Shown here one piece after another: positions 44,971 through 48,743 of a stretch of 64,000 nt of DNA (positions within the stretch are counted from its first letter, which is position 1; each line of letters begins with the position of its first letter). The DNA is from Pristiophorus japonicus (lineage: Eukaryota): NCBI RefSeq assembly GCF_044704955.1, contig NC_091994.1, positions 111,228,001 through 111,292,000 of the forward strand, written 5' to 3'. Made by a program: the position numbers and the translations under genes. The notes below the pieces were generated by a model. That model worked only from the letters and a program-made list of their open reading frames with translations, was not told the origin of the DNA and searched no databases.

Positions 44971-45780
44971 GAGCTGAGGGTGGATTCACTCTGGAGCATC
45001 CACGATGCTGAGAATGACGTGAGTATCACGTGTAGTGAATTGGTCTTACCGCAGGAGAAGGGTCCACAGCCAGATAGGGAATGGAAGACCAGCAGGAAGA
45101 GCAGTGCAAGAAAGATAGTGCAGGGATCCCCTGTGGTCATCCCCCTGCAAAACAGATACACTGCTTTGAGTACTGTTGGGGAGGATGACTCATCAGGGGA
45201 GGGCAGCAGCAGCCAAGTTCATGGCACCGTAGGTGGCTCTGCTGCAAAGGAGGGCAGGAAAAAGAGTGGGAGCGCGATAGTGATAGGGGATTCGATGGTG
45301 AGGGGAATAGATAGGCATTTCTGCGGACGCAACCGAGACTCCAGGATGGTATGTTGCCTCCCTGGTGCAAGGGTCAAGGATGTCTCGGAGCGGGTGCAGG
45401 ACATTCTGAAATGGGAGGGAGAACAGCCAGTTGTCGTGGTGCACATTGGTACCAACGACGTAGGTAAAAAAAGGGATGAGGTCCTACGAAAAGAATTTAA
45501 GGCGCTAGGAGCTAAATTAAAAAGTAGGACCTCAAAAGTAGTAATCTCGGGATTGCTACCAGTGCCACGTGCTAGTCAGAGTAGGAATCGCAGGATAGCG
45601 CAGATGAATACATGGCTTGAGCAGTGGTGCAGCAGGGAGGGATTCAAATTCTTGGGGCATTGGAACCGGTTCTGGGGGAGGTGGGACCAGTACAAACCGG
45701 ACGGTCTGCACCTGGGCAGGACCGGAACCAATGTCCCAGGGGGAGTGTTTGCTAGTACTGTTGGGGAGGATTTAAACTAA
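44971..45780 (+). CDS. CR1 ORF1 protein, partial, with SGNH/GDSL esterase domain
   Basis: SGNH blocks IVIGDS, LPGA, HIGTND and DGLHL, plus an NRY motif; no internal stops; true start missing. Confidence 0.88.
   Translation, partial: ELRVDSLWSIHDAENDVSITCSELVLPQEKGPQPDREWKTSRKSSARKIVQGSPVVIPLQNRYTALSTVGEDDSSGEGSSSQVHGTVGGSAAKEGRKKSGSAIVIGDSMVRGIDRHFCGRNRDSRMVCCLPGARVKDVSERVQDILKWEGEQPVVVVHIGTNDVGKKRDEVLRKEFKALGAKLKSRTSKVVISGLLPVPRASQSRNRRIAQMNTWLEQWCSREGFKFLGHWNRFWGRWDQYKPDGLHLGRTGTNVPGGVFASTVGEDLN
45771..45777 (+). promoter_or_regulatory. Candidate -1 frameshift heptamer T TTA AAC at the CR1-B ORF1/ORF2 junction
   Basis: ORF1 reads GAT TTA AAC TAA; the -1 frame TTT AAA CTA ATA TTG CAG runs into the 986-aa ORF2. 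Confidence 0.55.
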
Positions 45781-45782
45781 TA

Positions 45783-48743
45783 TTGCAGGGGGATGGGAAC
45801 CTATGCAGGGAGACAGAGGGAGACAAAAATGAGGCAAAAGCAAAAGACAGAAAGGAGATGAGGAAAAGTGGAGGGCAGAGAAACCCAAGGCAAAGAACAA
45901 AAAGGGCCACTGTACAGCAAAATTCTAGAAGGACAAAGGGTGTTAAAAAAGCAAGCCTGAAGGCTTTGCGTCTTAATGCAAGGAGTATCCGCAATAAGGT
46001 GGATGAATTAACTGTGCAAATAGATGTTAACAAATATGATGTGATTGGGATTACAGAGACGTGGCTCCAGGATGATCAGGGCTGGGAACTCAACATCCAG
46101 GGGTATTCAACATTCAGGAAGGATAGAATAAAAGGAAAAGGAGGTGGGGTAGCATTGCTGGTTAAAGAGGAGATTAATGCAATAGTTAGGAAAGACATTA
46201 GCTTGGATGATGTGGAATCTATATGGGTAGAGCTGCAGAACACTAAAGGGCAAAAATCGTTAGTGGGAGTTGTGTACAGACCTCCAAACAGTAGTAGTGA
46301 TGTTGGGGAGGGCATCAAACAGGAAATTAGGAGTGCATGCAATAAAGGTGCAGCAGTTATAATGGGTGACTTTAATATGCACATAGATTGGGCTAGCCAA
46401 ACTGGAAGCAATACGGTGGAGGAGGATTTCCTGGAGTGCATAAGGGATGGTTTTCTAGACCAATATGTCGAGGAACCAACTAGGGGGGAGGCCATCTTAG
46501 ACTGGGTGTTGTGTAATGAGAGAGGATTAATTAGCAATCTCATTGTGCGAGGCCCCTTGGGGAAGAGTGACCATAATATGGTGGAATTCTGCATTAGGAT
46601 GGAGAATGAAACAGTTAATTCAGAGACCATGGTCCAGAACTTAAAGAAGGGTAACTTTGAAGGTATGAGGCATGAATTGGCTAGGATAGATTGGCTAATG
46701 ATACTTAAGGGGTTGACTGTGGATGGGCAATGGCAGACATTTAGAGACCGCATGGATGAATTACAACAATTGTACATTCCTGTCTGGCGTAAAAATAAAA
46801 AAGGGAAGGTGGCTCAACCGTGGCTATCTAGGGAAATCAGGGATAGTATTAAAGCCAAGGAAATGGCATACACATTGGCCAGAAATAGCAGCGAACCTGG
46901 GGACTGGGAGAAATTTAGAACTCAGCAGAGAAGGACAAAGGGTTTGATTAGGGCAGGGAAAATGGAGTACGAGAAGAAGCTTGCAGGGAACATTAAGGCG
47001 GATTGCAAAAGTTTCTATAGGTATGTAAAGAGAAAAAGGTTAGTAAAGACAAACGTAGGTCCCCTGCAGTCAGAATCAGGGGAAGTCATAACGGGGAACA
47101 AAGAAATGGCAGACCAATTGAACAAGTACTTTGGTTCAGTATTCACTAAGGAGGACACAAACAACCTTCCGGATATAAAAGTGGTCAGAGGGTCTAGTAA
47201 GAAGGAGGAACTGAGGGAAATCTTTATTAGTCGGGAAATTGTGTTGGGGAAATTGATGGGATTGAAGGCCGATAAATCCCCAGGGCCTGATGGACTGCAT
47301 CCCAGAGTACTTAAGGAGGTGGCCTTGGAAATAGTGGATGCATTGACAGTCATTTTCCAACATTCCATTGACTCTGGATCAGTTCCTATGAAGTGGAGGG
47401 TAGCCAATGGAACCCCACTTTTTAAAAAAGGAGGGAGAGAGAAAGCAGGGAATTATAGATCGGTCAGCCTGACCTCAGTAGTGGGTAAAATGATGGAATC
47501 AATTATTAAGGATGTCATAGCAGTGCATTTGGAAAATGGTGACATGATAGGTCCAAGTCAGCATGGATTTGTGAAAGGGAGATCATGCTTGACAAATCTT
47601 CTGGAATTTTTTGAGGATGTTTCCAATAAAGTGGACAAAGGAGTACCAGTTGATGTGGTATATTTGGACTTTCAGAAAGCTTTCGACAAGGTCCCACACA
47701 GGAGATTAATGTGCAAAGTTAAAGCACATGGGATTGGGGGTAGTGTGCTGACGTGGATTGAGAACTGGTTGTCAGACAGGAAGCAAAGAGTAGGAGTAAA
47801 TGGGTACTTTTCGGAATGGCAGGCAGTGACTAGTGGGGTACCGCAGAGTTCTGTGCTGGGGCCCCAGCTGTTTACATTGTACATTAATGATTTAGACGAG
47901 GGGATTAAATGTAGTATCTCCAAATTTGCGGATGACACTAAGTTGGGTGGCAGTGTGAGCGGCGAGGAGGATGCTATGAGGCTACAGAGCGACTTGGATA
48001 GGTTAGGTGAGTGGGCAAATGCGTGGCAGATGAAGTATAATGTGGATAAATGTGAGGTTATCCACTTTGGTGGTAAAAACAGAGAGACAGACTATTATCT
48101 GAATGGTGACAGATTAGGAAAAGGGAAGGTGCAACGAGACCTGGGTGTCATGGTACATCAGTCATTGAAGGTTGGCATGCAGGTACAGCAGGCGGTTAAG
48201 AAAGCAAATGGCATGTTGGCCTTCATAGCGAGGGGATTTGAGTACAGGGGCAGGGAGGTGTTGCTACAGTTGTACAGGGCCTTGGTGAGGCCACACCTGG
48301 AGTATTGTGTACAGTTTTGGTCTCCTAACTTGAGGAAGGATATTCTTGCTATTGAGGGAGTGCAGCGGAGATTCACCAGACTGATTCCCGGGATGGTGGG
48401 ACTGACCTATCAAGAAAGACTGGATCAACTGGGCTTGTATTCACTGGAGTTCAGAAGAGTGAGAGGGGACCTCATAGAAACGTTTAAAATTCTGACGGGT
48501 TTGGACAGGTTGGATGCAGGAAGAATGTTCCCAATGTTGGGGAAGTCCAGAACCAGGGGTCACAGTCTAAGGATAAGGGGTAAGCCATTTAGGACCGAGA
48601 TAAGGAGAAACTTCTTCACCCAGAGAGTGGTGAACCTGTGGAATTCTCTACCACAGGAAGTAGTTGAGGCCAATTCACTAAATATATTTAAAAGGGAGTT
48701 AGATGAAGTCCTTACTACTCGGGGATCAAGGGGTATGGCGTGA
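45783..48743 (+). CDS. CR1 ORF2 protein (APE endonuclease plus reverse transcriptase)
   Basis: [53 protein letters not shown]; a 1-bp deletion alters the last few residues. Confidence 0.95.
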   Translation: MQGDGNLCRETEGDKNEAKAKDRKEMRKSGGQRNPRQRTKRATVQQNSRRTKGVKKASLKALRLNARSIRNKVDELTVQIDVNKYDVIGITETWLQDDQGWELNIQGYSTFRKDRIKGKGGGVALLVKEEINAIVRKDISLDDVESIWVELQNTKGQKSLVGVVYRPPNSSSDVGEGIKQEIRSACNKGAAVIMGDFNMHIDWASQTGSNTVEEDFLECIRDGFLDQYVEEPTRGEAILDWVLCNERGLISNLIVRGPLGKSDHNMVEFCIRMENETVNSETMVQNLKKGNFEGMRHELARIDWLMILKGLTVDGQWQTFRDRMDELQQLYIPVWRKNKKGKVAQPWLSREIRDSIKAKEMAYTLARNSSEPGDWEKFRTQQRRTKGLIRAGKMEYEKKLAGNIKADCKSFYRYVKRKRLVKTNVGPLQSESGEVITGNKEMADQLNKYFGSVFTKEDTNNLPDIKVVRGSSKKEELREIFISREIVLGKLMGLKADKSPGPDGLHPRVLKEVALEIVDALTVIFQHSIDSGSVPMKWRVANGTPLFKKGGREKAGNYRSVSLTSVVGKMMESIIKDVIAVHLENGDMIGPSQHGFVKGRSCLTNLLEFFEDVSNKVDKGVPVDVVYLDFQKAFDKVPHRRLMCKVKAHGIGGSVLTWIENWLSDRKQRVGVNGYFSEWQAVTSGVPQSSVLGPQLFTLYINDLDEGIKCSISKFADDTKLGGSVSGEEDAMRLQSDLDRLGEWANAWQMKYNVDKCEVIHFGGKNRETDYYLNGDRLGKGKVQRDLGVMVHQSLKVGMQVQQAVKKANGMLAFIARGFEYRGREVLLQLYRALVRPHLEYCVQFWSPNLRKDILAIEGVQRRFTRLIPGMVGLTYQERLDQLGLYSLEFRRVRGDLIETFKILTGLDRLDAGRMFPMLGKSRTRGHSLRIRGKPFRTEIRRNFFTQRVVNLWNSLPQEVVEANSLNIFKRELDEVLTTRGSRGMA

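What the first reader, a model, noticed from the sequence alone, without database searches (positions are those of the whole stretch)
45760..45800. Candidate programmed -1 ribosomal frameshift joining CR1 ORF1 (esterase) to ORF2 (EN-RT), conserved in three subfamilies
Seen: the last two ORF1 codons form a correctly phased X XXY YYZ-type heptamer in every junction present: T TTA AAC TAA (45771-45780, CR1-B), T TTA AAC TAG (18096-18105, CR1-C) and G TTA AAC TAA (6223-6214 minus, CR1-A). In each, ORF2 is in the -1 frame, is open across the ORF1 stop and begins with a conserved (L/W)QGDGN that has no ATG in front of it. Established: UUUAAAC is the coronavirus slippery site and GUUAAAC that of equine arteritis virus; LINE ORF2 is usually thought to be made by reinitiation. 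Inference: these LINEs may make a Gag-Pol-like ORF1-ORF2 fusion. I cannot confirm whether this has been shown before.
Basis: partly seen in the sequence, partly recalled or inferred. Interest (0 to 1): 0.8.

Follow-up and report, generated by a model that had tools for sequence, protein, structure and literature searches.

The report
Slippery frameshift site in CR1 LINEs
An abundant jumping gene of sharks and other animals (the CR1 LINE) ends its first gene with a fixed seven-letter slippery sequence followed by a stop, with its second gene running one base back, so ribosomes likely slip there to make a fused protein as retroviruses do, which would explain how these elements make their copying enzyme.

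Summary
Observation confirmed at all three window junctions. In 16 lineage representatives (6 own genome, 10 metagenome host DNA; median ORF1 identity 31%) the last two ORF1 codons are TTA AAC in 16 of 16, preceded by T (14) or G (2). None of 31 other conserved columns is fixed on one codon. ORF2's endonuclease lies in the -1 frame in 108 of 138 scored own-genome copies. Distant ORF1 proteins end in Gly-Asn, Lys-Asn or Phe-Phe instead, the dipeptides of other classic slippery sites (protein only). Best reading: programmed -1 frameshift giving an ORF1-ORF2 fusion (0.8), untested. Against: this family has an in-frame ATG (45858) before the endonuclease, and no conserved 3' hairpin or pseudoknot was found. 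A G5 run 10 nt downstream is the candidate stimulator. The window copy is 5'-truncated. This scan reported the same signal before on other DNA (e1-8041403, e1-9568866). Ten literature searches found no report for CR1; a review states a -1 frameshift for Dictyostelium TRE5-A/TRE3-A. The classic CR1 papers were not available.

The parts
44971..48855 (+). CR1-B element, 5'-truncated copy, ending in a (TTTCTATG)2 tail
   Evidence: blastn to full-length relatives and tblastn; sequence
44971..45780 (+). ORF1, residues about 47-315, SGNH/GDSL esterase, ending ...GEDLN*
   Evidence: Pfam PF13472 E 1e-12; PDB 4C1B ORF1-encoded protein E 2e-31
45753..45755 (+). last -1 frame stop (TAG), 6 codons before the site; it bounds the place where ORF2 can be entered
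45771..45777 (+). slippery heptamer T TTA AAC in ORF1 phase
45778..45780 (+). ORF1 stop directly after the heptamer (TAA; TGA or TAG in relatives, always Leu in the -1 frame)
45788..45820 (+). G5 run 10 nt after the heptamer plus three GGG tracts; candidate stimulator (G-quadruplex or protein site; inferred)
45771..48743 (+). [quoted passage not shown]
45858..45860 (+). first in-frame ATG of ORF2 (codon 29 counted from 0 at the heptamer), the start under the reinitiation rival
45138..45150 (+). C-rich ORF1 stretch (codons IPLQ), perfect reverse complement of 45783-45795; possible long-range partner, weak lead
18096..18105 (+). CR1-C junction T TTA AAC TAG (truncated, decayed copy)
6214..6223 (-). 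CR1-A junction G TTA AAC TAA (truncated, decayed copy)

Best explanation
CR1 LINEs carry a fixed slippery heptamer plus stop at the end of ORF1, with ORF2 in the -1 frame, and likely make ORF2 as an ORF1-ORF2 fusion by programmed -1 ribosomal frameshifting. Shown: the heptamer, its phase, its codon fixation, the -1 overlap and the G run 10 nt downstream. Inferred: most ribosomes stop and release the 315-residue ORF1p; a minority, with tRNA-Leu on UUA and tRNA-Asn on AAC, slip back one base and read on through LI(W)QGDGN, a variable basic linker, EN and RT, giving about 1,300 residues. This would set a high ORF1p:RT ratio and tie RT to the esterase/coiled-coil particle, like Gag-Pol. Least certain: the pause is most likely supplied by the adjacent stop codon together with the G-rich tract (quadruplex or bound protein), not by a classical hairpin or pseudoknot.
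For: (1) TTA 16 of 16, AAC 16 of 16, preceding base T 14 / G 2; 0 of 31 other conserved columns fixed; TTA is the rarest Leu codon (25 of 248) and other same-residue Leu pairs share a codon in 318 of 955. (2) With an anchor that excludes the last residues, 157 of 181 own-genome junction hits read K TTA AAC at the expected place (counts, duplicates included; the rest are point changes or indel-shifted copies). (3) EN in the -1 frame in 108 of 138 scored own-genome copies and 11 of 14 representatives with EN in view, over seven linker lengths (32, 36, 47, 50, 54, 65, 81 codons) that are stop-free. (4) A -1 stop lies within 6 codons upstream in 11 of 16, and no ATG lies between that stop and the site in 15 of 16. 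(5) No Met before the EN motif-I Asn in L046, L201 and L061; elsewhere the first Met sits at codons 4, 16-19, 22, 28 or 29, so no start is conserved. (6) Of 120 distant ORF1 proteins reaching the domain end, 50 end LN, 12 GN, 4 KN; 69 of 118 end in one of the 16 slippery-compatible dipeptides against a 4.4% background; the residue before LN is T-incompatible in 1 of 50 (55 of 350 nearby) and before GN G-incompatible in 0 of 20 (27 of 140). Atkins 2016 lists as shiftiest the heptamers that read KN, GN, LN and GF, and G_UU(A) for equine arteritis virus. (7) L2-like esterase elements lack the site (L093, L096).
Against: No experiment. In this family an in-frame ATG precedes EN in 54 of 54 T-type and 18 of 20 G-type open copies, and in family D in 18 of 19; 3 of 7 bird-type copies have an ATG 2 nt after the stop. 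No conserved local 3' structure: 11 of 12 folds have z above -1.4; only the window copy reaches -2.95. In the old family E the EN frame is -1 in only 6 of 17 copies, as expected of decay or of no constraint. The GN/KN/FF evidence is from proteins only, with no DNA. Lineages are related, so the p-values overstate. The looser test (any compatible dipeptide in an 11-residue window) gives 94 of 118 against 42-82 in control windows. One clade ends CRG/CSG/VGR/VSR with no compatible dipeptide.
Confidence: 0.8

Rival explanations
1. Termination-reinitiation at an AUG: ribosomes stop at the ORF1 stop and restart at a nearby AUG (45858 here), making a separate ORF2p as in SART1.
For: ATG before EN in most B and D copies, with G at -3 in B; ATG 2 nt after the stop in L068, L070, L076; reviews name reinitiation for SART1.
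Against: The AUG position is not conserved and is absent before EN in three lineages. It explains neither the fixed TTA AAC nor the open -1 frame upstream of the AUG: stops in the first 18 codons in 11 of 133 copies in -1, against 25 in frame 0 and 55 in +1 (copies are related).
Confidence: 0.1
2. AUG-independent reinitiation of the mammalian L1 type, with the heptamer, stop and G run acting as a restart signal; ORF2p would be separate.
For: Atkins 2016 says L1 ORF2 uses an unknown type of initiation (passage); this would tolerate missing AUGs. Alisch 2006 is recalled, not seen.
Against: It gives no reason for a phased X XXY YYZ motif, or for distant lineages to switch among LN, GN, KN and FF.
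Confidence: 0.06
3. The conservation has another cause: a protein need for C-terminal Leu-Asn, or an RNA signal (packaging, splicing, polymerase slippage) that looks slippery by chance.
For: LN is conserved at protein level in 34 of 43 homologues; G-rich templates can stimulate RT slippage (PMC5737552, abstract start only).
Against: Protein constraint cannot fix synonymous codons. An AG acceptor is missing in the 6 of 16 representatives with TAA or TGA stops, and the 3' side is purine-rich. The junction lists printed show no copy with an extra base inside the heptamer.
Confidence: 0.04

Closest known systems
-1 programmed ribosomal frameshifting of retroviruses and nidoviruses (U_UUA_AAC of coronavirus IBV; G_UU(A) variant of equine arteritis virus; Atkins 2016, PMC5009743, passages)
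   Same: Same heptamers in the same phase, joining an upstream structural ORF to a polymerase ORF in -1; the same set of alternative heptamers is implied in distant lineages.
   Different: The host is a non-LTR retrotransposon; the stop abuts the heptamer; no conserved hairpin or pseudoknot was found, but a G5 run 10 nt downstream.
Dictyostelium TRE5-A and TRE3-A (APE-type non-LTR elements; PMC5911963, passages)
   Same: The review says both require a -1 frameshift for ORF2; two ORFs, APE + RT.
   Different: Different group and ORF1; I saw only the review's sentence, citing the 1992 and 1998 sequence papers (the 1992 paper is not held), so I cannot say whether it was tested or which site is used.
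Canonical CR1 LINE with esterase ORF1 (PMC13343379 section 15; PMC3905857 passages)
   Same: Esterase ORF1, APE + RT ORF2, microsatellite tail; ORF2 44% identical to a bird-type CR1.
   Different: Neither paper contains 'frameshift'; the route of ORF2 translation is not addressed.
SART1 stop-start coupling and mammalian L1 ORF2 initiation
   Same: One RNA, two ORFs, ORF2 made at a low level.
   Different: Those give a separate ORF2p and have no phased slippery site.

Membership tests
CR1 LINE (esterase-ORF1 type) | ORF2 with APE endonuclease and RT | tested here: met
   Pfam PF03372, PF14529, PF00078
CR1 LINE (esterase-ORF1 type) | ORF1 with SGNH esterase | tested here: met
CR1 LINE (esterase-ORF1 type) | 3' microsatellite tail instead of poly(A); 5' truncation | tested here: met
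   (TTTCTATG)2 ending at 48855; starts at 44971
CR1 LINE (esterase-ORF1 type) | RT phylogeny inside the canonical CR1 clade | not tested
   No RT tree with named references; only 44% and 43% identity to L076 and L063 ORF2
Programmed -1 ribosomal frameshift | X XXY YYZ heptamer in the upstream ORF's phase | tested here: met
Programmed -1 ribosomal frameshift | Downstream ORF in -1, open from the site | tested here: met
   108 of 138 scored copies; 11 of 14 representatives; only 6 of 17 in old family E
Programmed -1 ribosomal frameshift | Synonymous-site conservation of the heptamer | tested here: met
   16 of 16 against 0 of 31 control columns
Programmed -1 ribosomal frameshift | A 3' stimulator 5-10 nt downstream (structure or protein-bound element) | tested here: inconclusive
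   No conserved local fold. G5 run starting +7 to +10 in 12 of 13 lineages and G4Hunter at the 97-99.9th percentile within the element in 13 of 13. Long-range pairing limited to some lineages
Programmed -1 ribosomal frameshift | Transframe product and heptamer-dependent efficiency | not testable with these tools
   Needs a reporter, mass spectrometry or ribosome profiling
AUG termination-reinitiation (SART1 type) | Conserved AUG overlapping or close to the ORF1 stop | tested here: not met
   First Met at codons 4 to 29, or absent before EN

The most novel reading that the evidence does not exclude
-1 frameshifting is the ancestral route to ORF2 across esterase-bearing CR1 LINEs, from crustacean-like lineages to sharks and birds, kept while swapping among the classic slippery heptamers, and in vertebrates it is driven by an adjacent stop plus a G-quadruplex or G-run-binding protein: a natural G-tract frameshift stimulator and a Gag-Pol-like LINE polyprotein.
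Probability: 0.25. Interest if true: 0.9.

Novelty: new variant of a known kind. Interest (0 to 1): 0.72.

Why it matters
How LINE ORF2 is translated is called an open question in reviews that do not contain the word frameshift. CR1-group elements cover 22-34% of shark and ray genomes (PMC13343379) and are the main interspersed repeat of chicken. A fusion would redefine the ORF2 N-terminus used in annotation and in engineered CR1 assays, link RT to the lipid-binding esterase particle, and bring LINE gene expression close to that of retroviruses. A 100-nt reporter makes it directly testable. Natural G-quadruplex stimulation was 'not currently known' in Atkins 2016.

Tried and rejected
Many metagenome loci are cut at the match end, so only 10 of 43 gave a junction used as representative; L067, L083, L089 carry indels upstream and were left out of the counts, as were the L2-like loci. 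Local 3' hairpin or pseudoknot: not conserved (pseudoknots were not modelled directly). Pairing of the G tract with the 3' UTR hairpin: rank 5 forward and outside the top 12 in reverse; rejected. Long-range pairing with ORF1 at about -650: best partner in 8 of 9 shark copies and 2 of 8 others, beyond a synonymous null in B, G, D, E1 (p 0.005-0.03) but not in 8 others, and no cross-lineage covariation (p 0.14 and 0.29); kept only as a lead. Expression: no RNA holder listed; contigs of four runs were uninformative. The ORF1 tree was the quick one, unfinished, and is used only to show groupings. The anchor presupposes part of the heptamer, so those calls are not used for its invariance.
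Full report
Observation. The three junctions are as described. At the focal site ORF1 ends GAT TTA AAC TAA (heptamer 45771-45777). The -1 frame is closed by TAG at 45753-45755 and is then open for 990 codons from the heptamer through an APE endonuclease and RT. ORF1 is an SGNH esterase related to PDB 4C1B. The element runs 44971-48855, is 5'-truncated and ends in a (TTTCTATG)2 tail. 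The host is a 5.9-Gb genome whose closest named ORF1 homologues are from sharks and rays, so a cartilaginous fish by inference. A first look with an ORF1 protein gave 181,369 candidate places (not a copy number).

Chance. In an intact ORF1 (L033) the only in-frame canonical heptamer among 314 positions is the last; the window's ORF2 has none in 987.

Within the genome. I gathered copies by DNA and by four protein queries and from 40 blind 10-kb stretches. With a profile that omits the last eight columns, 157 of 181 own-genome hits (window included, duplicates not removed) read K TTA AAC at the expected place; the rest are single changes or indel-shifted old copies. The EN motif is in -1 in 108, in 0 in 18 and in +1 in 12 of 138 scored copies; 21 had no EN in view, 11 were duplicates and 11 had no stop at the expected codon. 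The old family E is at chance level (6 of 17).

Across lineages. One metagenome scan returned 43 loci of host DNA; ten gave usable junctions. Seven look like bird CR1 (recalled resemblance; L076 has an ATTCTATG tail); the hosts of L061, L063 and L084 are not determined. With six own-genome representatives this gives 16 sequences of 12-92% (median 31%) identity, two of them inflated in divergence by frameshifted stretches. All 16 use TTA and AAC. The base before is T in 14 and G in 2. Every one of 31 other conserved columns uses two or more codons. TTA is 25 of 248 Leu codons. The stop varies (TAG 10, TAA 5, TGA 1). A -1 stop lies within six codons upstream in 11 of 16, and no ATG intervenes in 15 of 16.

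Start codons. L046, L201 and L061 have no Met before the motif-I Asn of the endonuclease. Elsewhere the first Met falls at codon 4, 16-19, 22, 28 or 29. The linker between the site and EN varies from 32 to 81 codons yet stays in -1 and stop-free in the intact lineages, which a restart model does not require.

Distant relatives. 34 of 43 homologues from sharks, rays and frogs end in LN. Among the best 150 representatives at 50% identity, 120 reach the end of the domain: 50 end LN, 12 GN, 4 KN, 4 FR. 69 of 118 anchored proteins end in one of the 16 dipeptides that an X XXY YYZ site can encode, against 4.4% background. The preceding residue also fits the first base of the heptamer (1 of 50 incompatible before LN against 55 of 350 nearby; 0 of 20 before GN against 27 of 140). 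A second search with GN/KN/FF proteins gave 46 hits; of 41 anchored, 14 have such a dipeptide last and 28 last or next to last; the five named hits are decapod crustaceans. Both queries bias what is retrieved, the proteins are related, and I have no DNA for them. Still, LN, GN, KN and GF are what the four shiftiest heptamers named by Atkins 2016 encode.

Stimulator. No conserved local fold was found in 12 junctions. A G5 run begins 7-10 nt after the heptamer in 12 of 13 lineages, two wobble positions of the -1 frame in it are fixed as G (15 of 15 and 14 of 15), and the window is among the G-richest 3% of the element in 13 of 13. The focal copy has four G tracts (45788-45820); several lineages have only two GGG tracts, so a quadruplex is not assured. 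Synthetic quadruplexes stimulate frameshifting and a protein-stimulated site exists in arteriviruses; the similar 10-nt spacing of the latter is recalled. A long-range complement in ORF1 is striking in this family but fails a covariation test.

Mechanism and rivals. I put -1 frameshifting at 0.8, AUG reinitiation at 0.1, L1-type AUG-independent restart at 0.06 and other causes at 0.04. The sequence features are shown; slippage, the fusion and the stimulator are inferred. Frameshifting and a downstream AUG could coexist.

What is known. Searches listed no paper on a CR1 frameshift. Seen as term counts and passages: PMC5009743 (first 300,000 of 449,034 characters; CR1 0 times), PMC5911963 (TRE5-A and TRE3-A 'require a -1 frameshift'), PMC3894237, PMC3708506, PMC2881922 (frameshift 0 times), PMC3905857, PMC4255032, PMC11835228 (first half), and PMC13343379 (passages, section 15, supplement search with sequence cells cut at 400 letters). 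Not seen: the 1997 turtle and chicken CR1 papers, Kapitonov and Jurka 2003, Kojima 2005, Alisch 2006, Marschalek 1992 and Repbase; a passing suggestion there cannot be excluded. This scan noted the same signal in two other genomes; that is not independent evidence, and it gave me the TRE5-A lead. None was listed for this genome or by sequence.

Verdict. A real, deeply conserved, correctly phased slippery site at the CR1 ORF1/ORF2 junction; most likely a programmed -1 frameshift; a new variant of a known recoding mechanism, untested, with the stimulator unresolved. Interest 0.72.

Noticed in passing
window 45138-45150 and 45783-45795: Longest perfect inverted repeat in the element (13 nt; 11 nt in typical copies) pairs the post-slip G tract with ORF1 codons IPLQ. 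The same C-rich stretch has a stronger local partner about 50 nt downstream in shark families, so a switch during ORF1 translation is conceivable. Not general across lineages.
   Followed up: yes
window 45169-45186 and 45754-45771: An 18-nt direct repeat (STVGED in both places) links the middle of ORF1 to the bases just before the heptamer.
   Followed up: no
own-genome family E, L124-L153: Old family in which the G run after the stop has grown to poly-G of variable length; the frame relation to ORF2 is lost in most copies.
   Followed up: partly
own-genome B family: The ORF1 stop is TGA in 22 of 66 T-type hits, a change that is silent (Leu) in the -1 frame.
   Followed up: no
P0111, P0120, P0136, P0141, P0163, P0166, P0182, P0186: A clade with Lys-Asn at a fixed distance from the catalytic motif but 2-12 residues before the stop: a predicted slippery site not abutting the stop.
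   Followed up: partly
P0096, P0109, P0206, P0207, P0210: A clade ending CRG/CSG/VGR/VSR with no slippery-compatible dipeptide; it may use another route.
   Followed up: no
L093:737-746, L096:4183-4192: L2-like esterase elements end CAT GAC TGA, with an ATG overlapping the ORF1 end and no slippery site.
   Followed up: partly
PMC13343379 supplement, entry AldAff_Crack-2: The visible first 400 letters show an esterase-like end followed by T TTA AAC TAG, so this entry labelled Crack may carry the same junction (cell cut, read by eye).
   Followed up: no
window 7920-11203 (-), 26150-27686 (+) and others: The window is dense in truncated CR1 ORF2 fragments; one 97-98% identical to B lies next to or inside an older copy.
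   Followed up: no
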